A program made the translations under genes and the position numbers. 60,626 bases of DNA from a virus (lineage: Duplodnaviria; Caudoviricetes): IMG/VR virus record IMGVR_UViG_3300032225_000604, positions 1-60,626 of that record; one strand, given 5' to 3'. The notes beneath the pieces are model-generated. The model had not been told where the DNA came from and ran no database searches. It was given only the letters and a program-made list of their open reading frames with translations. Position 1 is the first letter of the stretch. Every line of letters starts with the position of its first letter. Of the stretch, positions 4,723 through 59,916 are shown one piece after another.

Positions 4723-6000
4723 TCAGCGGCTCTTTGCCTTGCGATCCTTCTTACGGTTTAGCAAATGCTTGAGATGCTCTCTCCTCTTCTCATCTGATTC
4801 CTTTTCCAACACATCGGCAGATTTTTCGGGGATCTTCACTTCAGGAGTCTTTCGTTCCTGCATTTTCCTCATTGCGTCGAGAGAGGGACCAGCCTCCACC
4901 ATCTTCTGTTGATAGAGTTTCAGGTTTGTTTCCATCCTGGTCTTCTCAGACTCGGGGTAAAATGGATTTGACAGACATCTTGCTGATGCTTCCAACCCCT
5001 CATCAAGTCGATGTAGATAGTATGCTGTAGATGCAATTTCATCGTCCACCTGCCACCTATAGACATCTTCATCGATGAATAGAATATCAAACTGTGGATA
5101 CGGCATGTCCTTTGCCATCTTGGCAAAGAGATATGCAAGCCTAGGCTGATTCACCATGCGATACATCTTGGCAATGTGATACAGTGGTTCGGCTCGGATC
5201 GGTCGATAGTTCCATGCCATGAGGAACTTCTCCTTGACCTCACCAAATGTCTTGTTCGTGATAGCCGCGATCATGGCAATCCTATAGAGTGAATAGAAGA
5301 CTTCCTCTTCCCATCCACCCATCTCGACGCGCTTTCGGTATGCAGCATCGGACTTGTCCCATTGCTGTGAATCAAAATAGGACTGAGCAAGATAGAACTG
5401 ATCCCGTGTATTGGTAGGATCCTCCTTGAGGGCTTCCTCAAGGACGATGGCATCGCGGCTATACTTCTCAATGGGATCGATATTGAGGTTTCTCGCTCCA
5501 CCCATAGTACGGGCGCAGATGTTGTAGTTTCCATCTAACTTCATCACACGGGGATTTGGCTTCTCACACGCCGCATATTCGTGGAGGACGCCCTTGTACT
5601 GCCACTTGCAGTCCAACTTGAATATCTGATTGCGCCACCAGAAGAACGATCCGCGCTTGATGCGAAGGGCGAAACTATCTGCTTCCGTATTAGGAGGAAG
5701 TTTCAATTCACCTTCGATGTAATCGTCGGCATCGATGACCCATGCATAGTCTGCCTTGCCCTCTGCGGCTTGGAATGCAAGGGTTCGATTGTGACCGAAG
5801 TTCTTCCATTCATGTGAATGGAGTTCACCAGGAATACCCTTCTCAGCAAAGAAGTTCTTGATGATTTCCTGTGTTCCATCATTGGAACCCGTATCGCAGA
5901 TGACCCAGTGGTCAATGAACTTGTAGACGGAGTTGAGGCACTCAAGGATGATGTGCGACTCGTTCTTCACGATCATGCATAGTGTAACGGTTGGACGCAT
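4723..6000 (-). CDS. GT2 glycosyltransferase with TPR repeats (SunS-like architecture)
   Basis: MIVKNES, DTGSNDGT, WKNFGHNR, DADD (DxD), GVLHE, then TPR-like helices (FYLAQSY, YSLYRIA, AEPLYHIA). Confidence 0.88.
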   Translation of the reverse strand: MRPTVTLCMIVKNESHIILECLNSVYKFIDHWVICDTGSNDGTQEIIKNFFAEKGIPGELHSHEWKNFGHNRTLAFQAAEGKADYAWVIDADDYIEGELKLPPNTEADSFALRIKRGSFFWWRNQIFKLDCKWQYKGVLHEYAACEKPNPRVMKLDGNYNICARTMGGARNLNIDPIEKYSRDAIVLEEALKEDPTNTRDQFYLAQSYFDSQQWDKSDAAYRKRVEMGGWEEEVFYSLYRIAMIAAITNKTFGEVKEKFLMAWNYRPIRAEPLYHIAKMYRMVNQPRLAYLFAKMAKDMPYPQFDILFIDEDVYRWQVDDEIASTAYYLHRLDEGLEASARCLSNPFYPESEKTRMETNLKLYQQKMVEAGPSLDAMRKMQERKTPEVKIPEKSADVLEKESDEKRREHLKHLLNRKKDRKAKSR

Positions 6001-6018
6001 ACTGTATATTCCTTTGGT

Positions 6019-6435
6019 TCAGGGCTTCTTCTTACCTATGTGGTATTTAGGTACGAGTTCCCAGTTCTGCTTGTCTTTGAATGGGATTATCTTCATCTGT
6101 GCAAGAGAAACAATAGGTTCGCTTGCCTTCTTCTCATCGACTATGTCTACAAGACCCCATTCCTCCAGTAGGTTGGCAATCGTGTTCCGTCTGCCGATGT
6201 CGGTATCATCAATGTCGGTCGGTAGACCGTCTAGCGCGAACAGTTCCTTGAAATGAACGATATAGAACTTGCCGCGCTTGTGCAGGATGTGGCAACTCTG
6301 ATAGAGTTTGTTTTCCTTCTTGGAGGAGACACCGATCCTAGTCAGCGTCTCGCGCACCTTGAGAAAGTCATCCTCAGCCTTTAGTGTCACCTCCAGCAGA
6401 TCGTCTGCCTTGAGGTTCAATACTCTTTTTTCCAT
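6019..6435 (-). CDS. regA: Translational repressor RegA
   Basis: FLKVRETLTRIG, LYQSCHILHKRG, YIVHFKELFALDG. Start placed at ATG 6435 after GAGG. Confidence 0.96.
   Translation of the reverse strand: MEKRVLNLKADDLLEVTLKAEDDFLKVRETLTRIGVSSKKENKLYQSCHILHKRGKFYIVHFKELFALDGLPTDIDDTDIGRRNTIANLLEEWGLVDIVDEKKASEPIVSLAQMKIIPFKDKQNWELVPKYHIGKKKP
6044..6050 (-). promoter_or_regulatory. Putative late promoter (CTAAATA) upstream of glycosyltransferase
   Basis: TAAATA core inside the regA 3' end, 43 nt before ATG 6000. Confidence 0.5.
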
Positions 6436-6476
6436 AGTATCCTCGCCAATCAATCAACATGATAGAATGTCTTTGA

Positions 6477-7822: not shown

Positions 7823-7829
7823 GTTTTCC

Positions 7830-8504: not shown

Positions 8505-8507
8505 GAT

Positions 8508-8696
8508 TTATTCCTCTTCACTGATTTCATCGATCATGTCGTAAATGTCCTCACCACCATTGACCATGTCCTTCAGGTCTCGTAGGTGGTGCTTGGCATC
8601 ATGTCGCTTCTCGCGCCGATCCTTCTTCCTACCATTGGGGGTAGGACGATGGTCATCCATGCGTCCGAAGTCTTCGTCTTTCCAGTTACGGCTCAC
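8508..8696 (-). CDS. Small charged hypothetical protein
   Basis: 62-aa ORF with GGAGG RBS, tiling the gap between neighbouring genes. Confidence 0.65.
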   Translation of the reverse strand: MSRNWKDEDFGRMDDHRPTPNGRKKDRREKRHDAKHHLRDLKDMVNGGEDIYDMIDEISEEE

Positions 8697-10847: not shown

Positions 10848-10862
10848 CGTTCACTCCACCGG

Positions 10863-10870
10863 TATTTATA
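10863..10870 (-). promoter_or_regulatory. Late promoter TATAAATA upstream of gp46
   Basis: Exact T4 late consensus, followed by a GGAG RBS and ATG 10847. Confidence 0.65.
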
Positions 10871-11387: not shown

Positions 11388-11393
11388 GCCTAG

Positions 11394-11430: not shown

Positions 11431-13734
11431 TTAGAATCCAGTCGCACCCGCTGCATCAAGTTCGGTGAAAAGTTCCGTGAAGAACAAAGAATCCAATCCA
11501 CCCGTGATGCCACCCTTCATGCAAGCATAGAGAAGTTCAAACTCCGATGTTCTTGCATTTCCACTCCAGAAGTTCTGAGGAGGGGTTGTTGGAGTACGGC
11601 GATTTGGATATGGATCATTCGATACGACAGGTCCGATGTTCAATGCTTCCATGTCATTCTTATAGAGCAATCCAAGTCTCTTGTCGTACCATCCAGATTG
11701 ATCTGCTAGGAAATATCCATGACCGCTGTGAAGAATATCCACAACAGTGGCATCTATTGCCAACAACGATGGATAGAGATAGAACAGGCGGAATCTCCTG
11801 TCATGATACCAAGGTATCTCGACATTTCCATTATATGCTGTTCCGGGAATGCCTTTCCACTCCAATGCATTTCCATTCAGACGAATGAATGTATTGTAGA
11901 AGAACGGATACCCATCGGGGGTTCCCTTGTCATTTATCTTGGCAATTGCAAACAACTCTCCGAGTTCAGATGAGCCACATACACCCATTCCCCATATGGA
12001 GTTTACGAATGTTAGTCCGTGGAATCTCTGTCCGAAGAAGAGATCATATGGGCGCATGTACATTGTTGTCGCAATGTCGGCGTCCAGTCCCCAGAATCTT
12101 GGATTTGTATCGGTAGACGACTTCTTTTGCAGAGTTTGGGACGGATATCCATCAAAGTCATACCATGCAAACAACTCCATACCGACCACCACACCATCGG
12201 TTCCTGAGTTTCCGAATGTATGATTGTGCTGATCTCTTGCCCATGAAACGGGGATGTTTTCTACGAAACTTGCTCCCGATGGAGTGATGTTCGCCCAAGT
12301 CGTATATGTCGGAGCCTGATACTGATGATAGGTTCTTTCTATTGCCGCACCAGCATCCACAAAGACATGCGGGAATCCGTCTATTGGCGACTTGAACTTA
12401 TCCTTCCAATGGGACACCGAGGCATCAAGCCTCCACTTGTAGTAACGAACATTCTCGGCATCAGTAGGATCCTTGAAAAGCATCCACGGAATCGTCTGTT
12501 CGTACTCTGCTCCATAGGGAAGGAATCCCAAGTACGCAATGAACTCCATCGTATTTCCCCAAGCGGCAGAAAGAGCATCAAGGGCGGCAATCCGCTGCAA
12601 TCCATTTCCATAGGATATTCCAGGAGTGAAGTTGATCGCCCGATCCGTTATAGTCTGTGGATTGCTCGGGAATGTCGATCCATCGAACATGATCAATGTG
12701 CGTGTATTGAAGCAGAGACCCGGAGCGTTGAAATCAGTCAATGCCCCGACCCAAGTCAAGCCATTTGGATAACTGATCCACGGAGATCCTACGGCGACTT
12801 GATTGGCAGAGAAACCACCGAATGAACGATTTCCTCGGACAACGGAATATGTTCCTGCCGCATAGCATAATCCACGATAGGAAGTATTGAGATTGCTATC
12901 GGTAATGCCATCGACCGTGATTCCAAGTAGAGGATCCCGAATAACGGAAACATCGTTGAGAAGATCGCGAAGAGTTGCAGACTCCTGATTGAGAAGATAT
13001 TGATCAAAACGGAATCCTGTATCCGGAGCAAATCTATCGGTGATCCACGGAAGGCTTTGCTCGGCAACATATCCATATTGAGTCATAGGACTGCCAAAAT
13101 GTCCATATGGAGAATGCATCAGGATTCTCTCTATTCCATTCTGGTGATTCAACGAAAGACCCATCTTTTCGATGTTTCTGTTTCCCTCTTCCGGAAACCA
13201 GTTGAAGTCTAGTGCCATGTTGAAGAACTGATTGCCACCATCACGCGAATAGGAGTATTCCCCGATTCCATAAGTCTGATAGTCTACAAACCTATGCTTT
13301 GCCTGCTTCGGTTTTCTAGCCCGCTCATATCTCTTGTATGCAGCACGAACCGCAGTAGAAAAGTTCCTAGGATAGGTAAGGGGATCAAACCACCCCAGAT
13401 CCGATGCCGATATTTGATTGAACTGCGCTTCCGCAGTTCCACCCAATGTAAGTGGATTGATTGCAGAAGATATTCCCATCAACGATAAGGTGTTGGCAAG
13501 TTTTTCCGCAGTAGTACCAGCAGACCAACCGGGTTCGTATCTATCCATAAGATACTTGAACACGATGTCATATTTTTGCTGAAAGGTCTTGGGAGGTGCA
13601 GGTGGAGTTGGAATGATCGGAGTACGAGTTCCCTGCTCGGCAACAACGCTCGTTCCAGCATTGACTCCAGCCAACTTGGAGTTCGTCAACTTGATCTTGT
13701 AGTTGTTCTTTACCCGTATGTTCGTTATCTTCAT
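11431..13734 (-). CDS. Large hypothetical protein, probably virion-associated, possible glycoside-hydrolase-like barrel
   Basis: 767-aa ORF coupled by ATGA overlap; Pro-rich linker, aromatic-rich body, many G-x-T motifs. Confidence 0.6.
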   Translation of the reverse strand: MKITNIRVKNNYKIKLTNSKLAGVNAGTSVVAEQGTRTPIIPTPPAPPKTFQQKYDIVFKYLMDRYEPGWSAGTTAEKLANTLSLMGISSAINPLTLGGTAEAQFNQISASDLGWFDPLTYPRNFSTAVRAAYKRYERARKPKQAKHRFVDYQTYGIGEYSYSRDGGNQFFNMALDFNWFPEEGNRNIEKMGLSLNHQNGIERILMHSPYGHFGSPMTQYGYVAEQSLPWITDRFAPDTGFRFDQYLLNQESATLRDLLNDVSVIRDPLLGITVDGITDSNLNTSYRGLCYAAGTYSVVRGNRSFGGFSANQVAVGSPWISYPNGLTWVGALTDFNAPGLCFNTRTLIMFDGSTFPSNPQTITDRAINFTPGISYGNGLQRIAALDALSAAWGNTMEFIAYLGFLPYGAEYEQTIPWMLFKDPTDAENVRYYKWRLDASVSHWKDKFKSPIDGFPHVFVDAGAAIERTYHQYQAPTYTTWANITPSGASFVENIPVSWARDQHNHTFGNSGTDGVVVGMELFAWYDFDGYPSQTLQKKSSTDTNPRFWGLDADIATTMYMRPYDLFFGQRFHGLTFVNSIWGMGVCGSSELGELFAIAKINDKGTPDGYPFFYNTFIRLNGNALEWKGIPGTAYNGNVEIPWYHDRRFRLFYLYPSLLAIDATVVDILHSGHGYFLADQSGWYDKRLGLLYKNDMEALNIGPVVSNDPYPNRRTPTTPPQNFWSGNARTSEFELLYACMKGGITGGLDSLFFTELFTELDAAGATGF

Positions 13735-14180
13735 TTGGTTGCCTCTGCTGCTACTTCAAACTTTCCATCCAGCAACTTGCTGACTATCTCATCAGACCCA
13801 ACCAACTCGACAAGTTCCACATCATAGAAATAACGACCACCCTTGAAAGTGGAACTGGTATCGGAACTGATTATCATCCGAACGAATCCCGTTGCACCAC
13901 CGATATGAGCAAAGCCATCCGTGGTAAATCCATCGGTACTTGCGGGTTGCTTGACGAAATTCATGGTTGTTCCTGCCGAATACAGCATAGGAGTAGTATA
14001 CTTGGACTTGCGAATCTTCATTCGAAGCCGATAGTTGTCGAGGGAATACTGTATCGTGCCATTTTCATCGATGGTGGAAGCCAGCAACTGTATGGGCGAA
14101 AGAAGATCGTCGAACACCTGAAACTCAAGTACGAAGGTCGATCCTTGCTCTGCTGTAAGGTCTATGCTCAGTGCTGCCAT
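13731..14180 (-). CDS. Putative virion adaptor protein, paralog A
   Basis: EQGSTFVLEF...RMKIRK...RYFYDVELV...KLLDGKFEV; clearly homologous to the neighbouring ORF. Confidence 0.65.
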   Translation of the reverse strand: MAALSIDLTAEQGSTFVLEFQVFDDLLSPIQLLASTIDENGTIQYSLDNYRLRMKIRKSKYTTPMLYSAGTTMNFVKQPASTDGFTTDGFAHIGGATGFVRMIISSDTSSTFKGGRYFYDVELVELVGSDEIVSKLLDGKFEVAAEATK

Positions 14181-14189: not shown

Positions 14190-14648
14190 TCAGGTTGTTG
14201 CTTCTGCATTCACGACCATGCGACCAGACAGAACCTTGGTCACTTCAAAACTTCCCGTAGTTCCCGATACTGCCTCTATGTCATAGAAGTACTTGCCATA
14301 CTTTATGCCTGTTGTGGAGGATGGACTGATCGTCATGCGAACCTTGCCAGGCGTACCCGCAATGACATAGAAACCATCGGCAGTCCTGCCAGCGGTATCA
14401 TCATCACCGACTTGTATGACGCTTGTATCGGACAATGAATATGCCACGGCATGAAGGCAAGTGAGGCAACCATATTTCGTCCTACGCATCTTCATGCGGA
14501 AGGAATAGGTTCCCAAGTCATATGTGTTCACTCCATTGGGAGATGCCGTCACAAGACCAAGAGGAGTATCGTCATCCTTCTTGAGTTCAAACTCAAGGAT
14601 GAACGAAGCACCCTGCTCTATCGTGAAGTCCTGTACTGTAAGTGCCAT
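14190..14648 (-). CDS. Putative virion adaptor protein, paralog B
   Basis: EQGASFILEF...RMKMRR...KYFYDIEAV...KVLSGRMVV. Confidence 0.65.
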   Translation of the reverse strand: MALTVQDFTIEQGASFILEFELKKDDDTPLGLVTASPNGVNTYDLGTYSFRMKMRRTKYGCLTCLHAVAYSLSDTSVIQVGDDDTAGRTADGFYVIAGTPGKVRMTISPSSTTGIKYGKYFYDIEAVSGTTGSFEVTKVLSGRMVVNAEATT

Positions 14649-15584: not shown

Positions 15585-15588
15585 GAAA

Positions 15589-27238: not shown

Positions 27239-27245
27239 TATTTAT
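27239..27245 (-). promoter_or_regulatory. Putative late promoter (ATAAATA) upstream of gp19
   Basis: Overlaps the sheath stop codon. Confidence 0.55.
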
Positions 27246-30049: not shown

Positions 30050-30058
30050 TTTCTCTCC

Positions 30059-43915: not shown

Positions 43916-43925
43916 TTACTTTTCC

Positions 43926-45758
43926 TTACACGGCAGTGCCGCCGCCATAGACCGTTAGATTCAAATATTGGAAATTGTCGCTGTGGGTTGCGCCGATTAT
44001 GTCATACACCAAAACACCAAAAGTCAAGCCACCGTAGTTATACGGATTTGCAATGAACATCTGCGTAACGCCAGAGGTAGATTTAGTCACACTTGCTTCA
44101 ACTATGTATTGAGTCTGTGCGGTTGTTCCCAACTCTGAAAGTAGGTCGTGGCTGAAGACATAGTTTCCCTTGGCTGCACGGGTTATTCCCCATGTGCCAT
44201 ATCCAATGTCCGTGGTGCATCCCGTTCCACTGGTAGCACGAACCCAACGCTTTGCTGTATTCTTGGCAATTACCGCACCACCACCGGATGGACCTAACTT
44301 CAGGATTTTAGCATATGAATCCTTGCGAGTCTTGATGATCCAGCACATTACCATGTGCTGAGGAACATTGTTGTGGGCAACATCACCACCCGCATTTGCA
44401 ATGCTGAAAGTTACTCCTGGCGTAAGATTGCTTGCGCTCAGTGATATGTTTCCATTGACCGTGTGCGTGTGAGTTCCTGTTGCGGGAATCAATGTGCTGT
44501 TGGCTACCGATGGATCCACGAAGATGGTGTTGGTTCCACTCTCAAAGGATGCTCCAACAGATGCGATGTTGTGATTATGCGCTCCTGCTTGTCCTGTGGT
44601 TACATTGAAAGTTCCGCTGATATTGCCTTCAAGAGATGCCGATGAAATAGCATCGTGGCTGTGGATCGGCATCTCGTTGAATGTAAGCGTATGTACTTCC
44701 TCGCCGCCCATCTTTCCGACAGTATATGCATTGAATGCAGTATTCTGCGATCCAGTAATGCTTCTGGAATCACCTATCACAAATCGCGCACGGAGATCTG
44801 GCTTCTTGAACTTGGTCTTGGTGGGTGAAGAAGACACCTTATACTGAATATCAAGAGGAGAAGTTCCGATATAAAGTCTTCCCTGATCGTTCAGCACCAA
44901 TGCATCGTTATGATATGATGCACTCGACACACCATCGACATACAGTGGATCTACGAATATCTCCGCTCCCGTGACATTGTCACCCGAAACTGTTCCGCTC
45001 AATATCGTGCATTTGATCGTTCCGAAGGACGGACGCGAGATATAGAAAATACTTCCTGCAAGATTGTCGGTGGTCAAGGATCCGTTTCCGCTATTCGCCA
45101 CCTTGGTCAAGTCGGCAGTTTGCACGAATCCATATATCTGTCCGCTATTCAATGCCGAATATAGATCGGCGTAAGCAGTTACTCCGAGCAGCCCGCCGTC
45201 ACAGATGTCCCAACCCGAGGGAATCTGTGCCATGTTTCCTGCAAAAGCGGAAACCGAACCAACTGGCTGTATATCGCTAAGATCAACCGTGGAATCTCCT
45301 GCTATCCTCGACCCAATAGAGTTCACCACAATTCCGTCGATGGTTCCCTGATAAAGGGTTCCATCCACGGCTAGACCTGTGGTGATTATCACTGGCTTGA
45401 TGACATGACCTGGATTGCTTGGTGCGCTTGCAGACAACTTTCCTGCCGACACACCCGAAAGGTAGAATACCTGCGCTCCCGTGAATCCCGTGATGGTTGA
45501 CATCACGCTATCGGGAAGAGATATCTCTCCCGAATAGACTACCGTGAAGTCAGTTCCCGAGATCGACTCGACAACTCCCATGAAGTTGGCATTGGTTTCC
45601 GAATCAGCCTGTGCGCGGAGATACTTGTCCGTAACCGGATCATAACGAATGACATCGCCAACGCCGATCACATCTGCGGTAAGACCAGCCATGCTGATCT
45701 TGTTCCTCGTTGACCTGACATCTGCCAATGCTACTGGATCGAATGCGCTACTTCCCAT
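43926..45758 (-). CDS. Tail fibre with phage tail-collar domain (gp12/gp10-like)
   Basis: PVGSVSAFAG..IPSGWDICDG, PDLRARFVIG, GGEEVHTLT..EMPIHSH, HNH, HTH, HNNVP..MCWIIK. Confidence 0.85.
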   Translation of the reverse strand: MGSSAFDPVALADVRSTRNKISMAGLTADVIGVGDVIRYDPVTDKYLRAQADSETNANFMGVVESISGTDFTVVYSGEISLPDSVMSTITGFTGAQVFYLSGVSAGKLSASAPSNPGHVIKPVIITTGLAVDGTLYQGTIDGIVVNSIGSRIAGDSTVDLSDIQPVGSVSAFAGNMAQIPSGWDICDGGLLGVTAYADLYSALNSGQIYGFVQTADLTKVANSGNGSLTTDNLAGSIFYISRPSFGTIKCTILSGTVSGDNVTGAEIFVDPLYVDGVSSASYHNDALVLNDQGRLYIGTSPLDIQYKVSSSPTKTKFKKPDLRARFVIGDSRSITGSQNTAFNAYTVGKMGGEEVHTLTFNEMPIHSHDAISSASLEGNISGTFNVTTGQAGAHNHNIASVGASFESGTNTIFVDPSVANSTLIPATGTHTHTVNGNISLSASNLTPGVTFSIANAGGDVAHNNVPQHMVMCWIIKTRKDSYAKILKLGPSGGGAVIAKNTAKRWVRATSGTGCTTDIGYGTWGITRAAKGNYVFSHDLLSELGTTAQTQYIVEASVTKSTSGVTQMFIANPYNYGGLTFGVLVYDIIGATHSDNFQYLNLTVYGGGTAV

Positions 45759-45768: not shown

Positions 45769-48327
45769 TTATAGTTCAGATTCTACTTCGTAGTTTATGT
45801 TCATGACACCACCAGTGGTCTTGTTTGCCTTGAACCCCTTCTTGCCCTTTGTTGTGGCAGAAAGAGTTCCGCTATCCTTGGTGATATTGACTGTGCAGTT
45901 GTTTGGATCGCGAATTTCAACTGGGTATCTAACAGCAACCCAAGACCCTTCGACGGGTATGGAATCGTTGTTGCTTGCACTTCCAGCAGTCAAACCGCTG
46001 AATGGAGTCAAAGCAGATGATGTTTGGTAGTATCTGAGGCATCGATTGAATTCAGATGTAGGATCGTTCAGTTCAAATGGAGTGGCATCCTGTCCATATT
46101 CGAATTGAACTTGTGCCAGATAGATCTTGTAGTTATTCACTCCCGCAAGATTTGGATCAATCTCTTCAACCATATCTTTTCCGGCGAAAGTAGAGCCAGC
46201 CCTAATATAGAACTTGATCTCCGGACCATCGGTTCCTGATGCACCCGCTACACCACCACTGGCATCGGGCAACGAGAAAGTATGGGAGAACCTAGTCCAT
46301 GTTGTCGGTACATTCATGACAAATCCACGGTTCTTTTGTGAATTCGGCTCAATTCCCGTGGTAGCATAATCGGGTGCAGTTCCACCACCGAAATCCCTGC
46401 GGAATGCAATGCCCAACTTGGCATTGCTCACAGTTGCCTTGGCATAGAACGAAATCGTCGCATAGCCATTCGAGAAGTTCTCAATACCTTCGATGCGCTG
46501 GAAGAGATATGTCTCGCTGGTAGCACCGAAGCCACCAGTTCCAATGCTCATCTCAAGTCCATACGGCGAATATGCATTGGAGTTCTTGAGATCTCCGAGT
46601 CCCAATGTAGCACGGTTCACGGAGACATTCAGACGGTCGGCAGTTGTTCCGCCTGAGTTGACCATCTTCCATCTGTCTGCGGTGTATCGATTCAGTTCGG
46701 AAGTGGGATTCGCAAACGAGAATGTCGTTCCGCGCTGCCAGAAATCAAAGTTTCCATTGATCAACTTATTTCGGAAACCAGAGCCGCTCTGTGGTATGAG
46801 AATGCTCGTACCTGTATCGGTATTCGTATTGATGACAAGACCGACATAATTCTGCACGATTCCTGCTGTCGGAGTCACTGCAACAAGAATGGGCTTCCTG
46901 ACAGTATTGACGGTGATCGGTGGTGTGTTTGTCAGCGATCCATCTTCTGTTCCGAGGAAATATACTGATCCTGGCTGCAATGTCATTCCAGATGCACCGG
47001 AAAGATCGATGTATCCCGACACCGTCATCAACGATGCAGCGGAGTTTCCACCATAGTTTGTCTTGGAGATTATACCAAGTGCTTCTGCCTCTTCCGTGCT
47101 GTTGCAGGATGCCTTGACATAGGAACCATATAGTCTGTCGGATGCGGTGATTCCTTCTTCGAATCTAACAGTATCTCCGACAGAGAATAGATTTGGAGAA
47201 TGCCGAATGACCACTGTGGATGCATTCAACTTGGAATACAAGTCATCAACCGAGACTATCTTGTTTCCGACATAGTTCATCACCATTGCCTTGGTTGACT
47301 CAAGGGCATATAGGATCGGCTTGCGGATTGTTCCTGTGGTGGTCGGGGCAGTCTTGGTTATCTTTCCTGCTTCCGAATCAGATAGGAAGTAGAATTCACC
47401 AGTTCCAAGGCTTGTTGCAGAATCTGCGGATGCAATTGCTCCGGAGAAGTTTCCTGTCACATACCCAAGAAGGTTGACATCCACGAACCGCAGTGCCGAA
47501 TTTACTTCGACTGCAATACCAATGGATTCTGCATTTGAAGCGGTATCTGCCTTTGCAAGTGTGATTCCGCCCGTGGTGGCATCATGGCGGATGACCATGC
47601 CGAATGTATATCCGCTTGCAGTTATTCCATTAAACCTCTTGATGACTGAGGAGTTTATCATGCGAGATGAACCATCGCTGAGAAGGTTCATGTTCGTATA
47701 TGTCGCACCCACGGCATCGAAGTATGTCTGTACATCGACGGTGTTTCCCGCACTATAGGTGTTTATCGTCAACTTGGATGCGGGGCTGTTGTCATCACCT
47801 TCGGCAAATATGAATTTGTTATTCCTCGAATAGAACTTGGCATCACCAGTGAATGCAAGGGCATCGCTGATGCGCCATGCCGAATATGTCCTACCCCCAT
47901 CAAACGACTTCCAAAGGAAGGACTTGTCGCCACAAGCACCCGCGATGATGATTCCACCGCCACCAGCATTGGTGATGACATTGTCCGATGTTCCACCCGT
48001 ACCACCATCGGAACCAACGGCACCAAGGACAAGATTGTAATCATCTATCGTAACCAAGTTCGTGTTGACTGTGGTTACGGTTCCGTTGAAGGTGATGTTT
48101 CCTGTGAAGTTGTGATCACCGGGAATAGTCGATGCAAGATAGATGGTGGCAATACCATCATCACCTTGTATTGTGGAGATACCAGTAGCACCAGTCACCC
48201 CGTAAACCTTCATGCGGTTCAACTTGTTGATGATCTCATTGTTTGTCAGCGTATACCATTCATAGAAGGTATCTGACAAGGTCAATGGGGGGATGATGTA
48301 ACTGCTGCTTGCTGGACCTGTCGGCAT
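45769..48327 (-). CDS. Tail fibre/baseplate-associated protein with repeated modules and a CBM-like C-terminal domain
   Basis: LSDTFYEW..TN N-terminus, GTVTTVNT..IDD motif, two ~140-aa repeats, RNKLINGNFDFWQRG...VQFEYG...CLRYY domain. Confidence 0.75.
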   Translation of the reverse strand: MPTGPASSSYIIPPLTLSDTFYEWYTLTNNEIINKLNRMKVYGVTGATGISTIQGDDGIATIYLASTIPGDHNFTGNITFNGTVTTVNTNLVTIDDYNLVLGAVGSDGGTGGTSDNVITNAGGGGIIIAGACGDKSFLWKSFDGGRTYSAWRISDALAFTGDAKFYSRNNKFIFAEGDDNSPASKLTINTYSAGNTVDVQTYFDAVGATYTNMNLLSDGSSRMINSSVIKRFNGITASGYTFGMVIRHDATTGGITLAKADTASNAESIGIAVEVNSALRFVDVNLLGYVTGNFSGAIASADSATSLGTGEFYFLSDSEAGKITKTAPTTTGTIRKPILYALESTKAMVMNYVGNKIVSVDDLYSKLNASTVVIRHSPNLFSVGDTVRFEEGITASDRLYGSYVKASCNSTEEAEALGIISKTNYGGNSAASLMTVSGYIDLSGASGMTLQPGSVYFLGTEDGSLTNTPPITVNTVRKPILVAVTPTAGIVQNYVGLVINTNTDTGTSILIPQSGSGFRNKLINGNFDFWQRGTTFSFANPTSELNRYTADRWKMVNSGGTTADRLNVSVNRATLGLGDLKNSNAYSPYGLEMSIGTGGFGATSETYLFQRIEGIENFSNGYATISFYAKATVSNAKLGIAFRRDFGGGTAPDYATTGIEPNSQKNRGFVMNVPTTWTRFSHTFSLPDASGGVAGASGTDGPEIKFYIRAGSTFAGKDMVEEIDPNLAGVNNYKIYLAQVQFEYGQDATPFELNDPTSEFNRCLRYYQTSSALTPFSGLTAGSASNNDSIPVEGSWVAVRYPVEIRDPNNCTVNITKDSGTLSATTKGKKGFKANKTTGGVMNINYEVESEL

Positions 48328-53727: not shown

Positions 53728-53739
53728 CTAATCTTGCTC

Positions 53740-56067: not shown

Positions 56068-56068
56068 A

Positions 56069-58078
56069 TTAGAAGTTCGGTGATACTAGGGTTGTGCTTT
56101 CAATCAGACCATATTCATTCGCAGGACCAGTGGTGCCGACATAGGATGTTCCGCTTGGATTAGAGTGGAAGTGGTTTCCTATCGGCATCCTGAAGAATGG
56201 ATTCAGAGCCACAGAGCCGAAGGATGCTCCTGCACCTGTCTTGCCATTCCAGACTCCCGTGAGACCCTTTATGCCACGGGTGTTTGGATGGTGATAGACT
56301 TTCCAATATGAATAACTGAGTCCCTTCGCTTCTATGTATCCCTCTACGCTGCCGCTTGCACCGAGGGGTAGCCCCTGCGTATCGTGGGTAGTACCATCGG
56401 ATTCGGGAACTATTCCGACTCCATAGCGGACGCGATCTATGGTTGCCGTGAAGCCACCCGACTGAGAATACATTCTGAAAGTGACTCCCTCAAGGAATCC
56501 CGCACCAGTGATTGAAGCGGATGCCGTATTGAAGTCTATGCCTCTCAGCAGAAGTACACCATATGTTCCGCCATCGTTGAGTATGTTGAACTCAAAGACT
56601 CCTGCGGATATTCCGTTTCCACATGCACCCGATGCACCGATGCTCGTCCATGTGGTTCCTGCCACGAAGGTGAAGCCAACTGGCTTGACGAACAACTTTC
56701 CGCCCGTCAGTCCGTAGTTCTGGAAGGAACTGAATGTATTTCCCCTTGGGTTGAAACCATTCGGATATTTTGTCGCTAGATCTGCGGTGGTTCCCATTCG
56801 ATATGGAGTATAGTGACCGATGTACGGATTCTCGTATCTCTGCATCTCGGAATGGAACGGGAGCGAGTCGATGATGTTCCTCTTGATGAGGATCTCTCCG
56901 AACATCTTGAAGCCAGCGGGATGCACAAGTTTCTTGTACATCTCCTTGTATTTGGACAGGGATATCTCGCTACGAAGGGCATACGAGAAATCCTGATAGT
57001 AGTCTCCATCGAAGAGTTTCTTGCTGGAACTCAACTTGCCGTTGTTGTTGGCATAATATCCTGCATAGTTGGTCAATGCGCCGATGACAGGACGGAGTTC
57101 CGCAGTTCCATCTCCGCTATTGGATACGACAGTCGTTATGAAATCATCGACATAGTCAACGCCAGAGTCGAGGATCTTCACCGACTTTATGGTTCCCTTG
57201 ACATCGGTAAGTTCAAGTGCAGTCGAAAGACCAACTCCATTGCCAACTCCAGCAGCATAGATGTAATCGGTCTTTCCGTATCCATATCCGCCATTTACCA
57301 CTTCAATGGAACTAACGACGGGATATACGAGTTCCTCTATGGTTCCTGTGGGAAGATTGCAGTACAGAGGCTGGTTTTCCGAGAATGTCCCGAATGGATT
57401 CTTGACGAATATCTCGGTCACATCATAGTAGTTCTTGGTGTACTGAATCACCTCGGTGGCAGTGGCATATGCAATCACATTTCCCGTTATCTGATCTATC
57501 TGATAGACCTGATTTCCTGCGATTGCATAGTTTGCAGTACCACCATCGCTTGTAGTCTTGATCGATGTCCGCTCTATCCATTTTCCATGCGAGCATTTCA
57601 GAATCTCTTCGCCCGGATACTTCACTTCCGATGCGACATTGTAGATCAGGCGGAAGAGGAAGCGGTATGCCTTCTCAGTTCCCTTTGCCCCATAGAAGTT
57701 TCGTGCATTCTTGAGGAAGTTAGCCTCGCTGACCACATTGCCATTTGAATCCACCGCGAGTTGCACGGGGAAGTTCTGTAGGTACATCGCACGGAAATCC
57801 TGCGTGAAGAATACGAAGGTTCTGTCGATGTCCGTGAGTTCCGTGAATGCATCGATGATTCCGAATGCATTCTGATACTGCTCCATCCATTCGTAATAGA
57901 CCTCAACGAATCTTCGGAATGTCTCATGGTCGCTGTTGACGAAGTCGGGAACCTGATCCACGATCAGGTTGCTCGGACCAAATCTCTTCAATATGCGAGG
58001 AGATTCCTCAGACAACTGAAGTGTCTGTATCTCGGGAGTTCCCCCGCTACCCGTGAAGAGAATGGGGAGAGTAGCCAT
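56069..58078 (-). CDS. Baseplate wedge protein gp7-like
   Basis: FVEVYYEWME, FYGAKGTEKAYRFLFRLIY, YYQDFSY, VHPAGFKMFGE; between gp6 and gp8. Confidence 0.8.
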   Translation of the reverse strand: MATLPILFTGSGGTPEIQTLQLSEESPRILKRFGPSNLIVDQVPDFVNSDHETFRRFVEVYYEWMEQYQNAFGIIDAFTELTDIDRTFVFFTQDFRAMYLQNFPVQLAVDSNGNVVSEANFLKNARNFYGAKGTEKAYRFLFRLIYNVASEVKYPGEEILKCSHGKWIERTSIKTTSDGGTANYAIAGNQVYQIDQITGNVIAYATATEVIQYTKNYYDVTEIFVKNPFGTFSENQPLYCNLPTGTIEELVYPVVSSIEVVNGGYGYGKTDYIYAAGVGNGVGLSTALELTDVKGTIKSVKILDSGVDYVDDFITTVVSNSGDGTAELRPVIGALTNYAGYYANNNGKLSSSKKLFDGDYYQDFSYALRSEISLSKYKEMYKKLVHPAGFKMFGEILIKRNIIDSLPFHSEMQRYENPYIGHYTPYRMGTTADLATKYPNGFNPRGNTFSSFQNYGLTGGKLFVKPVGFTFVAGTTWTSIGASGACGNGISAGVFEFNILNDGGTYGVLLLRGIDFNTASASITGAGFLEGVTFRMYSQSGGFTATIDRVRYGVGIVPESDGTTHDTQGLPLGASGSVEGYIEAKGLSYSYWKVYHHPNTRGIKGLTGVWNGKTGAGASFGSVALNPFFRMPIGNHFHSNPSGTSYVGTTGPANEYGLIESTTLVSPNF

Positions 58079-58080
58079 GC

Positions 58081-59916
58081 TTATGCCTTCCTAGAAGAAG
58101 CGTCCTGTAGGGTCACCGTGATGGATTCGGCAATCGTTGGATCTATCAGGAGAACTTGATTCCTCTTTGGAAGGATGTCGAACCTTTGGTCTGGAATGAC
58201 GATGAACTTGATGTATGGCTGTCCACCAGTTCCCGTTGGTGCGAATCCGATCAGATTCACCTTTCCAGTCTGATAGTCTATCTTTCCGACATTTGCCTTG
58301 ACAAGGGTCTTCGTGCTTCCGATCATCGTATAGATGGACAACTTGCCATATCCATTGTCCTCAATGAAGCAGTCCTTGGTGTTGTTGTCGGCATCTCGGT
58401 ATTGGAACACCGATGTGGATACGATTGGAGTATATCCATCGAATGGATGGACAAGTGCAATCCCGAAGTCGAGCGAGTAGTTGTTGACTCCATACTGCGG
58501 GATTATCTGCTTGAGCAAGCGTGTGTTCACCCTGCTGCTCACGATGGAGTTGCTCGACACCTCTATCTGACGGGAAAGCAGCGAATAGCGGAATGCTGCC
58601 CCGAATACCTGTAGATTGAGGTCCGAATATGTGCCGATTCCCGACACCACCGAATCCTTGATTGCTGCTTCGCTGCTGAATGCGCGGGTGGAATCGTATG
58701 TCACGAAGCAATCGACCAGAACATATGTGTAGTCAACATCGACAATATCCACATTGACCGTGACTATCTTCTTCTTGTCGAGTATGTTCTTCTTCAGGCT
58801 TTCCTTCTGTGCATCGCTCAACACGAATGAGTTCTTGGGAAGAATGGAGATATAGACCTTGCCGTATTCAGGAGGATCGCTCTCCTCTCCACCCCATACC
58901 CGAACCGATTCGGCATCGGGATACTCGCGGAGGATGATGCTCTCATAGTCGTATACGGTTACCGTCCTGTCCTGCGACTGATAGTACTTTGGGGCAGCAT
59001 ACTTGATCTTTAGGTTGCTGTCTCGCTCTGCTCCACCCGAAGACGCGGCGATGGTCGTTACCGTGGCATCAAAGTCATTTCCTTGGATTCCCCCGAACGA
59101 GAAGGAAGATGTCGTGGTATCCCTGTTTCCTATTCCATTGGCAGCGACACCCTCGGTCTGGAAATACATGACTACGATGTAGTTGCCCTTTTCAGGAGTT
59201 GCTCCCAGTATTCCATCACCAAACGAAACTTCATATCTTCCACGATAGTTCTCGTTGACGAAGTAGACCTTGCTGGTGGAATCGAGTTCAAGATAGTCGG
59301 TGTTCTCGACCCAGTTGACATCGGCATTGGTGAAATCGGATGGAGACCTCATCACATAGATGCGAAGTATGTCCTTATCGATGCCGTCGCTGGGGATCTC
59401 TATCTTCGTTGCATTGCTGTCGGGATCGTATATGAAGGATACGCTCCTATACTTGCCCTGATGCAGTTCGATGTTCTCGCACATGTATGGTTCGGATGTG
59501 CGGTCGATCTCAAACGACTGTATGGTGCTGAAAGTATACTCGGTGCCATCCTTGGATCCCGTGAAGACAGTTCCTTCGGGGAGAACGGACGGAACGCCGC
59601 TAGTGGTTCCGAACTGCAAGGATACGGTGGCAGTTGCCGCGTTCTTCGAATTCGGTACATATCCCAGGTTCTTTGCAAGGGAGACTATGGACTTCCTCAT
59701 GATTGCGGAATCTATGAAAGACTCAGCCGCGATCATGTTGGCATACATCGCCGTATAGTGAGTATTGTATGCAAGCAGGTCGAGCAGGACATTGATGCCC
59801 GCTCCCTCGTAGTCGTAGTCGGAGAACTCGGAGGTGGTCGAGAGATAGTTCTTGAGGTTCTGCTTGATTCCGTCGAAATCAAGTTCTGTGATGGGAGTAA
59901 GTACGCGATTTGGCAT
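58081..59916 (-). CDS. 6: Baseplate wedge protein gp6
   Basis: ELDFDGIKQNLK, LLDLLAYNTHY, FGDGILG, QDRTVTVYDY, WGGEE..PPEYGKVYI. Confidence 0.96.
   Translation of the reverse strand: MPNRVLTPITELDFDGIKQNLKNYLSTTSEFSDYDYEGAGINVLLDLLAYNTHYTAMYANMIAAESFIDSAIMRKSIVSLAKNLGYVPNSKNAATATVSLQFGTTSGVPSVLPEGTVFTGSKDGTEYTFSTIQSFEIDRTSEPYMCENIELHQGKYRSVSFIYDPDSNATKIEIPSDGIDKDILRIYVMRSPSDFTNADVNWVENTDYLELDSTSKVYFVNENYRGRYEVSFGDGILGATPEKGNYIVVMYFQTEGVAANGIGNRDTTTSSFSFGGIQGNDFDATVTTIAASSGGAERDSNLKIKYAAPKYYQSQDRTVTVYDYESIILREYPDAESVRVWGGEESDPPEYGKVYISILPKNSFVLSDAQKESLKKNILDKKKIVTVNVDIVDVDYTYVLVDCFVTYDSTRAFSSEAAIKDSVVSGIGTYSDLNLQVFGAAFRYSLLSRQIEVSSNSIVSSRVNTRLLKQIIPQYGVNNYSLDFGIALVHPFDGYTPIVSTSVFQYRDADNNTKDCFIEDNGYGKLSIYTMIGSTKTLVKANVGKIDYQTGKVNLIGFAPTGTGGQPYIKFIVIPDQRFDILPKRNQVLLIDPTIAESITVTLQDASSRKA

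What the first reader, a model, noticed from the sequence alone, without database searches (positions are those of the whole stretch)
4723..59916. Candidate sequon-directed virion glycosylation system: G-x-(T/S/C) motif across virion proteins plus a late SunS-like glycosyltransferase
Seen: G-x-T/S/C, often followed by G, A or an aromatic residue, recurs densely in most tail, baseplate and capsid ORFs. By eye there are about 18 in the last ~215 aa of the gp7-like protein (GNT, GLT, GFT, GTT, GAS, GAC, GIS, GVT, GKT...). It also fills variable insertions of gp23 (GVTGG, GGNT, GSTG, SGNT), both sheaths (GITW, GVTA, GATY, GLTG, GFTA), the 852-aa fibre (GVTGATG, GACG, GITASGYTFG, GASGMT) and the orphan 767- and 805-aa ORFs. 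It looks sparse in gp44/45/46/47, UvsW and gp17. Cys appears at the third position too (GAC, GVC, GLC, GIC, GSC). Known: GT2+TPR enzymes such as SunS/ThuS glycosylate Cys/Ser in Gly-rich peptides, and some mycobacteriophages glycosylate their virions. Inference: the 4723-6000 enzyme, or a host system, glycosylates many surface G-x-T/S/C sites and gives the particle a glycan coat.
Basis: partly seen in the sequence, partly recalled or inferred. Interest (0 to 1): 0.9.

Follow-up and report, generated by a model that had tools for sequence, protein, structure and literature searches.

The report
Phage virion G-x-T motif with glycosyltransferase
A T4-like phage and its uncultured relatives that carry a SunS/SgtA-type glycosyltransferase have tail and baseplate proteins unusually rich in the short motif Gly-x-Thr, which suggests, but does not prove, that these phages sugar-coat their particles at a defined sequence motif.

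Summary
In 23 virion ORFs of the window, GxT occurs 147 times against 103 expected from local shuffles. That is rank 1 of 290 spaced residue pairs. GxS shows no excess. GxC does not discriminate. Most of the raw density difference is Gly/Thr composition.

The 4723-6000 protein is a GT-A domain plus TPR-like helices. Its best fold matches are SunS and ThuS over the full length. It is not a SunS equivalog.

Under one fixed protocol, 8 of 8 phage records with this enzyme show GxT ratios of 1.41-2.09. Seven of 7 T4-like phages without it show 0.87-1.24. The enzyme-bearing phages may be a single clade, so the comparisons are not independent.

In distant relatives the gene is followed directly by GxT-rich virion genes. 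In Tunturi_5 and in 15 of 78 bacterial loci it lies near collagen-like G-x-T repeats. C. difficile SgtA, also GT-A plus TPR, O-GlcNAcylates Thr in GPT repeats (PMC7157674).

Best reading, at about 0.55: a Thr-O-glycosyltransferase acting on GxT in virion proteins. No glycan has been shown. Earlier first-reader notes proposed the same enzyme role on other genomes.

The parts
4723..6000 (-). GT2 (GT-A) plus TPR-like glycosyltransferase, 425 aa. Candidate initiating protein Thr-O-glycosyltransferase.
   Evidence: Pfam PF00535 matches residues 7-98, E 2e-13. phrog_13126 matches residues 4-375. PDB sequence hits: GmaR 22ao E 1.4e-12, SunS 7msp E 1.6e-6. The AF2 model has pLDDT 88.8, with strands and helices at 5-162 and helical repeats at 176-384. 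Foldseek top hits are SunS 7msn (E 1.7e-16, 389 columns) and ThuS 7msk (E 7.8e-15); the next hit, TarS, is at 8.6e-8. D90-A-D92-D93 is invariant in 27 homologues.
6044..6050 (-). CTAAATA box 44-50 nt upstream of the glycosyltransferase ATG, inside the 3' end of regA. Possible late-type promoter.
   Evidence: Sequence read. CTAAATA occurs 7 times, all on the coding strand, against 2.9 expected; 3 of 100 shuffles reach 7. ATAAATA occurs 5 times, all on the coding strand. Promoter function is inferred, not shown.
13731..14180 (-). 149-aa Ig-like virion protein (phrog_1084). Its homologue directly follows the glycosyltransferase gene in distant relatives. Candidate dedicated acceptor.
   Evidence: phrog_1084 E 3.8e-12. 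4 GxT sites. In 46 loci of L025-L080 a small ORF (<200 aa), which aligns with this family, sits directly after the GT; its GxT count is 262 against 119.8 expected. The AF2 model is all-beta with pLDDT 76, and the GxT-bearing stretch 77-86 has pLDDT below 50. Best fold hits are ~139-aa chains of the T5/DT57C tail tip, E about 1e-6.
14190..14648 (-). 152-aa paralogue of the preceding Ig-like protein.
   Evidence: phrog_1084 E 8.2e-14. 40% identical to the 149-aa copy. 2 GxT sites.
11431..13734 (-). 767-aa orphan ORF upstream of the two Ig-like genes. GxT- and GxC-bearing.
   Evidence: No PHROG or Pfam hit. 10 GxT and 3 GxC sites. G.[TSC] is 22 against 10.2, z 4.2.
56069..58078 (-). gp7-like baseplate wedge protein, 669 aa, with a GxT-dense C-terminal part.
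   Evidence: PHROG baseplate wedge hits. GxT 15 against 7.3. 17 G.[TSC] sites in the last 215 aa.
45769..48327 (-). 852-aa tail fibre protein.
   Evidence: phrog_4492 tail fibre. GxT 20 against 10.8.
39138..41066 (-). 642-aa virion-module ORF with a concanavalin-like (Laminin_G_3) domain.
   Evidence: PF13385 E 3.6e-14. 13 GxT sites. G.[TSC] is 23 against 14.2.
34146..36563 (-). 805-aa orphan ORF between gp16 and gp15.
   Evidence: No family hit. 12 GxT sites. G.[TSC] is 24 against 12.7, z 3.7.
42080..45758 (-). Two fibre-module ORFs of 611 and 610 aa.
   Evidence: 11 GxT sites each. The 610-aa ORF hits tail and tail-fibre PHROGs.
27242..31960 (-). Two tandem tail-sheath paralogues of 935 and 633 aa. 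Their GxT sites are confined to the variable middle parts.
   Evidence: phrog_23. In the 935-aa copy, 11 of 11 GxT lie in residues 100-620 and none in 1-100 or 620-935. In the 633-aa copy, 6 of 7 lie in residues 98-400.
3139..3648 (-). Cytidylyl/adenylyl-transferase-like protein. Possible nucleotide-sugar donor synthesis (inference only).
   Evidence: PF01467. RfaE domain II and TagD-like NCBIfam hits, all below cut-off. A homologue lies near the GT in L018, L019, L056 and L068. A nucleotidyltransferase lies beside the Tunturi_5 GT.

Best explanation
The 4723-6000 gene encodes a cytoplasmic GT-A plus TPR protein glycosyltransferase of the SunS/ThuS/GmaR/SgtA kind. It transfers a sugar from a nucleotide-sugar donor to the hydroxyl of Thr in the motif G-x-T. 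The preferred context is [A/S]-G-[I/V/A/L]-T-[A/G/F/W]. The acceptors are the phage's own virion proteins, modified during assembly.

The targets are mainly peripheral parts: the gp7-like wedge protein, the fibres, the orphan tail-module proteins, the variable sheath domains and the Ig-like phrog_1084 proteins. In relatives they also include collagen-like G-x-T fibres.

In this window the enzyme stands alone, so a single sugar per site is the simplest expectation. In more distant relatives it closes a roughly 15-kb island of further glycosyltransferases and sugar-modifying enzymes that could extend the glycan.

Shown: the fold class, the motif excess, the co-occurrence and the gene linkage. 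Inferred: catalysis on GxT, the donor, the timing and the biological effect (shielding or adhesion).
For: 1. ENZYME CLASS. The protein has a GT2 domain. Sequence hits in the PDB are GmaR, SunS and ThuS. The model's best fold matches are SunS and ThuS over 389-390 of 425 columns, about 8 orders of magnitude in E-value ahead of TarS. The DAD(D) motif is invariant. TPR Pfam families are recorded for some homologues.

2. MOTIF IN THE WINDOW. GxT is 147 against 103, rank 1 of 290 pairs. It is direction-specific (TxG 105 against 104) and Thr-specific (GxS 102 against 96, GxV 78 against 73).

3. CO-OCCURRENCE. The fixed protocol takes 22 kb from the gp6 start and all same-strand ORFs of at least 100 aa. 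Carriers of the enzyme, 8 of 8, give r = 1.43, 1.41, 1.72, 2.09, 1.53, 1.57, 1.47 and 1.78; GxT ranks 1 in 7 and 2 in 1. Non-carriers, 7 of 7 (T4, HTVC008M, Melnitz-3, S-SM2, pf16, Moby, S-SCSM2R), give r = 0.87-1.24. The Mann-Whitney p is 1.6e-4 with phylogeny ignored. S-SCSM2R is reported to have 13 other glycosyltransferases (PMC12801897, passages) but lacks this one. GC content does not separate the two groups.

4. POOLED TEST. With collagen-like runs masked, pooled carriers give GxT r 1.57 (z 15), GxS 1.01, GxV 1.13 and GxI 1.09. Pooled non-carriers give GxT 1.06.

5. INTERNAL CONTROL AND LINKAGE. In the loci of L025-L080 where the GT ORF was found, ORFs upstream of the enzyme (glycan enzymes) give GxT 421 against 448.8 (r 0.94). 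ORFs downstream give 1600 against 925.8 (r 1.73). The small Ig-like ORF directly after the enzyme gives 262 against 119.8 (r 2.19, n = 46).

6. OTHER LINEAGES. In the jumbo phage Tunturi_5 the homologue (40% identity) lies about 4 kb from a 1469-aa fibre with 79 GxT against 37, made of GAT/GPT/GIT runs. In 15 of 78 bacterial loci with a homologue (36-49% identity) there are runs of at least 5 tandem G-x-T triplets within 8 kb, mostly in the gene directly upstream. The comparison figures are 1 of 80 gp6 loci and 0 of 12 control loci.

7. PRECEDENT. C. difficile SgtA has a GT-A domain at residues 1-260 and TPR at 262-358, and its gene is directly upstream of bclA3. It adds beta-O-GlcNAc to Thr of GPT-repeat peptides in vitro (PMC7157674, passages read).

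8. SELECTION. Thr in GxT is kept in the G001 orthologue in 87 of 137 cases, against 452 of 923 for other Thr (Fisher p 0.0018). The whole motif is kept in 81 of 137 cases, against 0.36 expected.
Against: - No glycan, glycopeptide or enzyme activity has been shown for any phage of this group.
- The carriers fall into three deep groups. A single origin is not excluded: 39% of bootstrap trees need only one change. By gp23 the carriers are slightly closer to each other (57-80% identity) than to isolates (53-56%). The co-occurrence may therefore be one inherited state.
- In the window itself the conserved core virion proteins have no excess (26 against 26.1). The enzyme gene is not adjacent to a GxT-rich gene.
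- The context around the site is hydrophobic, with I/V/A/L at x and A/G/F/W after Thr, and charged residues depleted. That also fits a beta-strand structural motif.
- Some of the excess in relatives comes from repeat domains whose consensus contains GGT or GxT, such as IPT/TIG-like repeats.
- Megaphage homologues (about 30% identity) have no GxT-rich neighbour within 15 kb.
- Non-structural homologues also show a mild excess, with ratios of about 1.24-1.57 in four of five sets and 0.73 in G002. I attribute part of this to Walker-A GKT; that is my inference and was not tested.
- The gene sits among nucleotide-metabolism genes.
Confidence: 0.55

Rival explanations
1. The GxT excess is a structural signature of fold types that this phage clade inherited, such as turn-to-strand motifs, IPT/TIG-like repeats, fibre repeats and collagen-like triple helices. 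It has no causal tie to the enzyme across the virion. The enzyme then acts only on a few dedicated substrates (collagen-like fibres, the Ig-like protein), or on something else.
For: The site context is hydrophobic and charged residues are depleted. Repeat domains with consensus GGT/GxT occur in G002, and collagen-like runs occur in G001. The window's core proteins show no excess. Monophyly of the carriers is not excluded. GxT sites are conserved between orthologues, as a structural motif would be.
Against: The excess survives masking of collagen-like runs. It is spread over unrelated proteins without tandem repeats. It is Thr-specific, with only slight excess for the beta-branched Val and Ile (1.13 and 1.09). 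It is absent from 7 T4-like phages whose virion proteins are equally Gly/Thr-rich. In three of the four carriers compared besides the window it also appears in conserved core proteins of the same folds: G003 1.39, G002 1.63 and G004 1.40, against 0.65-1.15 in controls (G001 is 1.08).
Confidence: 0.27
2. The enzyme modifies host envelope glycans (LPS or O-chain), for example to block superinfection. This is how glycosyltransferases of pelagimyophages and cyanomyophages are usually read.
For: Published reading for glycosyltransferases in these phage groups (PMC7029224 and PMC12801897, passages read). In G003 the gene ends an island holding GT10, GT25, GT2, epimerases and methyltransferases, all typical of polysaccharide synthesis. 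JGI names homologues 'glycosyltransferase involved in cell wall biosynthesis'.
Against: The best fold matches are peptide glycosyltransferases with a TPR domain, not polysaccharide enzymes. In the window and its close relatives L001-L024 this is the only GT seen in the stretches examined. This reading explains neither the GxT excess nor the linkage to GxT-rich virion genes.
Confidence: 0.1
3. The enzyme glycosylates phage DNA bases, as part of the modification-like cluster at 1902-6000 (DNA methylase, DUF1599, dUTPase, cytidylyltransferase).
For: Gene neighbourhood. The order RegA-GT-dUTPase-DUF1599 is conserved, with variations, in most of L001-L024. Earlier notes e1-6294275 and e1-5894784 raise this reading.
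Against: No thymidylate-synthase-fold hydroxymethylase (PF00303) in 0 of 5 carrier records, including one complete genome. The fold is GT-A plus TPR of the peptide-modifying kind. From recall, the T4 DNA glucosyltransferases are GT-B. TET/JBP-type oxidases were not searched for.
Confidence: 0.05

Closest known systems
Clostridioides difficile SgtA acting on BclA3 (spore exosporium O-GlcNAc transferase)
   Same: Both have a GT-A domain followed by C-terminal TPR repeats and are similar in size (358 against 425 aa). The SgtA acceptor is Thr in G-P-T, which is a G-x-T motif. The enzyme gene lies next to the gene of its GxT-rich substrate, as in relatives L025-L080, Tunturi_5 and several bacterial loci (PMC7157674, passages).
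   Different: Here most candidate sites are single GxT motifs in globular or fibrous virion proteins rather than collagen triplet arrays. The setting is a phage virion, not a spore. The donor sugar is unknown.
SunS / ThuS glycocin S-glycosyltransferases (PDB 7msn, 7msp, 7msk)
   Same: They are the closest solved structures over the full length, with GT-A plus a helical TPR-like domain (E 1.7e-16 and 7.8e-15). Sequence similarity covers residues 3-205. The DxD motif aligns. SunS is itself carried by a prophage, SPbeta.
   Different: The window protein scores 39 bits against the SunS equivalog model TIGR04195, whose cut-off is 350. Identity is 13-20%. SunS and ThuS modify one Cys (ThuS also Ser) of a small secreted peptide; this is recalled and also given in the depositors' titles. 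No glycocin-like peptide gene was looked for or seen here. The Cys signal (GxC) is not discriminating.
Listeria GmaR (flagellin O-GlcNAc transferase and anti-repressor; PDB 22ao)
   Same: It is the best sequence hit in the PDB, covering residues 1-98 at E 1.4e-12. It is a GT2 plus TPR enzyme that modifies a structural filament protein in the cytoplasm (PMC9638930, PMC3150276: search listing and abstracts only).
   Different: Only the N-terminal 98 residues align. No flagellin is involved and there is no MogR-like partner.
Mycobacteriophage virion glycosylation (Freeman et al. 2023)
   Same: Phage-encoded glycosyltransferases decorate the phage's own capsid and tail proteins. This is the only established case of phage virion glycosylation that I met in the searches.
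   Different: As summarised in PMC12619734 (passage), the glycans there sit on the C-termini of the capsid and tail-tube subunits. Here the candidate sites are internal GxT motifs spread over many tail and baseplate proteins. I could not read the original paper because it is not held, so enzyme families could not be compared.

Membership tests
Glycosyltransferase family 2 (Pfam PF00535, GT-A fold) | Match to the family model above its curated cut-off | tested here: met
   51.1 bits against a cut-off of 23.3, residues 7-98. The model shows an alternating strand/helix N-terminal domain.
Glycosyltransferase family 2 (Pfam PF00535, GT-A fold) | DxD metal/nucleotide-sugar binding motif | tested here: met
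   D90-A91-D92-D93 is invariant in 27 aligned homologues. It aligns with the DAD motif of GmaR and SunS.
SunS family peptide S-glycosyltransferase (NCBIfam TIGR04195, equivalog) | Score above the equivalog cut-off | tested here: not met
   39.1 bits against a cut-off of 350; only residues 3-96 match.
SunS/ThuS-like architecture (GT-A plus C-terminal TPR-like helical domain) | Full-length structural similarity to SunS/ThuS | tested here: met
   Foldseek: 7msn_A E 1.7e-16, TM 0.58, 389 columns; 7msk_B E 7.8e-15, 390 columns. TPR proteins also match the C-terminal half.
SunS/ThuS-like glycocin system | A small Cys-bearing precursor peptide gene beside the enzyme | not tested
   No dedicated search for small peptide ORFs was made. 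The neighbours are regA and a dUTPase.
SgtA-type Thr O-GlcNAc transferase of G-x-T repeats | GT-A domain followed by TPR repeats | tested here: met
   The SgtA architecture is taken from PMC7157674.
SgtA-type Thr O-GlcNAc transferase of G-x-T repeats | Enzyme gene adjacent to a G-x-T-rich acceptor gene | tested here: inconclusive
   Met in relatives: a small GxT-rich ORF follows the GT in 46 loci of L025-L080; the Tunturi_5 fibre is about 4 kb away; 15 of 78 bacterial loci have G-x-T runs. Not met in the window itself, nor in L001-L024, where 0 of 24 loci have G-x-T runs.
SgtA-type Thr O-GlcNAc transferase of G-x-T repeats | Transfer of GlcNAc from UDP-GlcNAc to Thr | not testable with these tools
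   Needs an enzyme assay.
SgtA-type Thr O-GlcNAc transferase of G-x-T repeats | Sequence homology to SgtA itself | not tested
Phage DNA base glycosyltransferase systems (T4 type) | A hydroxymethylase of the thymidylate-synthase fold that makes the acceptor base | tested here: not met
   PF00303 was found in 0 of 5 carrier records, while the positive controls matched in 10 of 14 genomes. The window itself is only 60.6 kb.
T4-like myovirus (Kyanoviridae-like) structural module | Syntenic gp25-gp6-...-gp13-14-15-16-17-18-19-20-21-22-23-gp3 genes | tested here: met
   PHROG hits. gp23 is 53-54% identical to those of Pelagibacter, Methylophilales and Synechococcus phages.

The most novel reading that the evidence does not exclude
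A large, uncultured group of aquatic T4-like myoviruses uses a true O-glycosylation sequon, G-x-T with a small or aromatic residue after Thr. The sequon is read by a phage-encoded GT-A plus TPR initiating enzyme. Through it the phages coat the outer parts of sheath, baseplate, fibres and accessory Ig-like proteins with sugars. In some lineages a 15-kb phage glycan island extends these into complex glycans. The same enzyme family would read G-x-T in collagen-like surface proteins of bacteria from several phyla. That would make G-x-T a general cytoplasmic O-glycosylation sequon of prokaryotes and their viruses.
Probability: 0.4. Interest if true: 0.88.

Novelty: new variant of a known kind. Interest (0 to 1): 0.78.

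Why it matters
Virion glycosylation by phage-encoded enzymes is so far established, as far as my searches showed, only for mycobacteriophages. Glycosyltransferase islands of marine and freshwater T4-like phages are routinely read as host-LPS or DNA modification (PMC7029224, PMC12801897).

If the GxT reading is right, three things follow:
- These abundant phages carry a glycan coat. That bears on adsorption, particle stability, grazing and recognition by host defences.
- It gives a simple, sequence-readable O-glycosylation sequon.
- It gives a function to a very common orphan enzyme: 3,608 homologues at E <= 1e-5 and 191 confirmed stretches in bacterial genomes.

The hypothesis is directly testable with peptides and recombinant enzyme.

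Tried and rejected
- Whole-protein shuffles alone overstate the effect, so I switched to shuffles within blocks of 12-60 aa. The G.[TSC] ratio falls from 1.33 to 1.25-1.30 but stays significant.
- GxS as part of the motif: rejected.
- GxC as part of the motif: the pooled excess in carriers is 174 against 113.7. In 62 of the 174 sites the next residue is Cys, in two Cys-rich genomes, and T4 and Melnitz-3 have similar ratios. I treat it as unproven.
- GC content as the cause: rejected. Carriers range 0.31-0.49 and non-carriers 0.35-0.54.
- Collagen-like runs as the sole cause: rejected. Masking changes the ratios little.
- Looking for relatives inside the carrier groups that lack the enzyme. A gp6 single-protein scan gave only 21 loci, mostly short. 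A gp6 alignment scan gave 80 loci, mostly under 50 kb, whose enzyme status cannot be told. I used these loci only as a background for tandem G-x-T runs (1 of 80).
- The gp6 tree did not resolve whether the carriers are one clade.
- Megaphage homologues: no GxT-rich neighbours. Reported as a negative.
- Tunturi_5 whole proteome: only r 1.15, and the largest single excess by far (79 against 37.3) comes from one collagen-like fibre.
- The T4 late promoter TATAAATA occurs once in the window and not at the enzyme gene.
- Pfam found no TPR in the window protein at E <= 0.01. The TPR-like nature rests on the fold search and on homologues' precomputed Pfam hits.
- No complex-prediction job was sent, because an enzyme with its substrate is rarely informative.
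- Supplements of papers were not consulted. Table 1 of PMC7157674 (the peptide sequences) was not seen.

Full report
WHAT THE WINDOW IS

All genes lie on the minus strand. PHROG, Pfam and NCBIfam searches show part of a T4-like myovirus. It holds a replication block (gp43, gp44/62, gp45, RegA, gp46/47, UvsW, UvsY, gp55). It also holds a full virion block: gp25, gp6, a gp7-like protein, a gp8-like protein, a 1743-aa VrlC-like protein, fibres, gp13-15, gp16/17, two sheath genes, gp19-23 and a gp3-like protein.

The nearest isolates by gp23 are Pelagibacter, Methylophilales and Synechococcus myoviruses, at 53-54% identity. The 'genome' held for this window is the window itself.

THE OBSERVATION

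G-x-[TSC] is indeed much denser in virion ORFs: 262 sites in 12,604 aa, against 57 in 6,945 aa of non-structural ORFs.

Most of that contrast is composition, because the GxT-rich virion proteins have about twice the Gly and Thr content. Beyond composition, shuffles inside blocks of 12-60 aa still leave a ratio of 1.25-1.30 (z 4.4-4.9) in virion ORFs. Non-structural ORFs give 1.11-1.13, which is not significant.

I then split the motif and compared it with every other spaced residue pair.
- GxT is 147 against 103 (z 4.6). It is the top pair of 290 at spacing 2 and the highest z over spacings 1-4.
- GxS is 102 against 96.
- GxC is 13 against 6.8.
- TxG is 105 against 104.

The residue after Thr is G, A or F in half of the sites. 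So the real signal is directional and Thr-specific.

Within the window the excess sits in peripheral proteins: gp7-like 15 against 7.3, the 852-aa fibre 20 against 10.8, and the orphan ORFs. The 11 conserved core proteins sum to 26 against 26.1, and gp23 has 6 against 4.2. In the two sheath proteins, 17 of 18 GxT sites lie in the variable middle parts.

THE ENZYME

The 425-aa protein has a GT2 domain. Its best sequence matches among solved structures are GmaR, SunS and ThuS. It scores far below the SunS equivalog cut-off, 39 against 350 bits.

An AlphaFold model built on 27 homologues has pLDDT 88.8. It shows a GT-A domain followed by a helical repeat domain. Foldseek ranks SunS (E 1.7e-16, 389 columns) and ThuS (7.8e-15) first. 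Wall-teichoic-acid enzymes follow about 8 orders of magnitude in E-value behind (8.6e-8 and weaker), and TPR proteins match the C-terminal half. The DAD(D) motif is invariant.

'SunS-like' is therefore right as an architectural class, not as family membership.

The gene follows regA by 18 nt. A CTAAATA box lies 44-50 nt upstream of its ATG. All 7 CTAAATA and all 5 ATAAATA copies in the window are on the coding strand. Late expression is possible but unshown.

In the isolate collection, a tblastn of the enzyme finds it in only 22 records, none of them T4-like. In IMG/VR it is common: 128 loci. The protein database holds 3,608 homologues.

I fetched four whole carrier records (G001-G004) and parts of three more (G005, G006, G009). 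For comparison I fetched the matching regions of T4, S-PM2, HTVC008M, Mosig, Melnitz-3, S-SM2, pf16, Moby and S-SCSM2R.

I applied one annotation-free protocol to all: 22 kb from the gp6 start, same-strand ORFs of at least 100 aa, and 300 local shuffles.
- All 8 carriers, the window included, give GxT ratios of 1.41-2.09. GxT ranks 1 in 7 of them and 2 in 1.
- All 7 non-carriers to which the protocol could be applied give 0.87-1.24.
- S-PM2 and Mosig, tested on annotated virion proteins instead, give 0.94 and 1.09.
- The fraction of GxT followed by G, A or F is 0.30-0.54 in carriers and 0.15-0.29 in non-carriers.
- GC content does not separate the groups.
- S-SCSM2R is reported to encode 13 other glycosyltransferases (PMC12801897, passages) but lacks this one. 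It gives 1.24.

After masking collagen-like runs, pooled carriers give GxT 1.57 (z 15), GxS 1.01, GxV 1.13 and GxI 1.09. Pooled non-carriers give GxT 1.06.

In three of the four carriers compared besides the window, the excess also appears in conserved core proteins: G003 1.39, G002 1.63 and G004 1.40. G001 gives 1.08, the window 1.00, and controls 0.65-1.15.

GENE LINKAGE

In close relatives (L001-L024) the synteny is RegA-GT-dUTPase-DUF1599, as in the window.

In more distant relatives (L025-L080, 52-58% identity) the enzyme is usually followed at once by a small ORF of about 140-150 aa. In many loci this ORF is recognisably homologous to the window's 13731-14180 and 14190-14648 proteins.
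- That ORF's central loop reads like G-L-T-Y-G-Y-T-G-G-F-T.
- Across 46 such ORFs, GxT is 262 against 119.8.
- Same-strand ORFs downstream of the enzyme give 1600 against 925.8.
- Those upstream give 421 against 448.8.

In G003 the upstream genes form a glycan island of about 15 kb. It holds methyltransferases, GT2, GT25, a GT47-like enzyme, a GT10 fucosyltransferase, a sugar C-methyltransferase and three NDP-sugar epimerase/dehydratases.

The window's 149-aa protein models as an Ig-like beta-sandwich (pLDDT 76), with part of its GxT-bearing loop at low confidence. It resembles chains of about 139 aa in the T5/DT57C tail tip. I recall these as the collar protein p132, but the tool does not name them.

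The enzyme gene therefore sits at the junction between glycan genes and GxT-rich virion genes.

OTHER LINEAGES AND THE PRECEDENT

In the soil jumbo phage Tunturi_5 the homologue lies next to a nucleotidyltransferase. About 4 kb away is a 1469-aa tail fibre with 79 GxT against 37 expected, built from GAT/GPT/GIT/GLT collagen-like runs. The rest of that proteome shows little excess (r 1.15 overall). G001 has a similar 1066-aa fibre, with 68 against 28.

A scan of bacterial genomes found 191 stretches that encode a relative. Of the 78 loci kept, 15 have runs of at least 5 tandem G-x-T triplets within 8 kb. These mostly lie in the gene directly upstream, in Actinomycetota, Methylobacter and Burkholderiales. 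The comparison figures are 1 of 80 phage gp6 loci and 0 of 12 control loci. There was no matched bacterial background, and six-frame reading of GC-rich repeats can mislead. The inspected ORFs do have plausible N-terminal domains.

The literature gives a direct precedent. C. difficile SgtA has a GT-A domain plus TPR, is 358 aa long, and its gene lies directly upstream of bclA3. It adds beta-O-GlcNAc to Thr of GPT-repeat peptides in vitro (PMC7157674, passages).

SELECTION ON THE SITES

Between the window and its G001 orthologues, Thr in GxT is conserved in 87 of 137 cases, against 452 of 923 for other Thr (p 0.0018). The whole motif is kept in 81 of 137 cases, against 0.36 expected.

WHAT WEAKENS THE CASE

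- Nothing here shows a sugar on any protein.
- The carriers form three deep, well-supported groups in a gp6 tree. Their monophyly is neither supported nor excluded. gp23 identities hint at one uncultured clade. The 8-against-7 contrast may therefore be one evolutionary event.
- The site context is hydrophobic, as in a strand.
- Some relatives owe part of their excess to repeat domains with GGT in their consensus.
- Megaphage homologues show no linkage.
- The window lacks adjacency between the enzyme and any GxT-rich gene, and it has no excess in core proteins.

RIVALS

- A purely structural, clade-inherited motif remains the main alternative (about 0.27).
- Host-glycan modification is the published reading for such genes (PMC7029224; PMC12801897). 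It fits the islands but not the fold class or the motif (about 0.10).
- DNA glycosylation fits the neighbourhood (dUTPase, DUF1599, methylase; earlier notes e1-6294275 and e1-5894784). However, 0 of 5 carrier records have a thymidylate-synthase-fold hydroxymethylase, and the fold is of the peptide-modifying kind (about 0.05).

VERDICT

It is specific to phages that carry this enzyme. The enzyme belongs to the one known architectural class that glycosylates Thr in G-x-T.

The most likely mechanism is SgtA-like O-glycosylation of GxT threonines on peripheral virion proteins (confidence 0.55). It would be a new variant of known kinds: phage virion glycosylation, and SgtA/BclA3-type modification.

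I found no paper describing it. The searches were virion glycosylation / bacteriophage / glycosyltransferase; collagen-like / tail fiber / glycosylated; O-glycosylation / virion proteins / glycopeptide / tail sheath, 0 papers.

Earlier first-reader notes of this scan proposed the same initiating role for GT2-TPR genes on other genomes, unchecked.

Noticed in passing
window 27242-31960: There are two intact tandem tail-sheath paralogues of 935 and 633 aa. The pair is conserved in the close relative G001 (916 and 635 aa), whereas G002-G004 and all the isolates examined have one.
   Followed up: partly
window 3153, 6044, 6478, 10863, 15578, 19624, 24942, 26667, 27239, 30318, 37763, 48373: All 12 copies of [AC]TAAATA lie on the coding (minus) strand. 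By my reading of their coordinates, most lie within about 60 nt upstream of a gene start (SpeD-like, GT, regA, gp46, UvsW, gp20, gp19). They may be this phage's late-promoter core, in place of the T4 motif TATAAATA.
   Followed up: partly
window 1902-4707: Between gp43 and the glycosyltransferase lies an accessory cluster: a DNA N6/N4 methylase, a SpeD-like AdoMet decarboxylase, an RfaE-II/TagD-like nucleotidyltransferase, a GroES-like ORF, DUF1599 and a dUTPase. The nucleotidyltransferase might make the sugar donor, or the cluster might modify nucleotides.
   Followed up: partly
L128-L131 (G006, G005), 22 kb after gp6: The baseplate-region proteins of these two phages have 4-5% Cys and many G-x-C-C repeats. 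This is a Cys-rich repeat domain not seen in the window.
   Followed up: no
L100-L101 (G003 52.6-69.3 kb): A glycan island of about 15 kb lies between regA and the GT2-TPR gene. It includes a GT10 alpha-1,3-fucosyltransferase-like gene, a GT47/RXYLT1-like gene and a sugar C-methyltransferase. This is an unusual set for a phage.
   Followed up: partly
L261, L262, L271, L281, L313, L314, L326 and others (bacterial loci): In environmental Mycobacterium and other Actinomycetota genomes, homologues of the enzyme often occur as two to four tandem copies.
   Followed up: no
window 11431-13734 versus G001 94877 (L094-L095): The 767-aa orphan ORF has a 2272-aa counterpart in the close relative G001 (53% identity over the matched part). 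This ORF therefore varies about three-fold in length between near relatives.
   Followed up: no
L322, L324 (Giesbergeria, Ca. Aalborgicola): A two-partner-secretion (filamentous-haemagglutinin-like) N-terminal domain is fused to long GAT/GGT collagen-like repeats. The gene lies two genes upstream of a GT2-TPR homologue.
   Followed up: no
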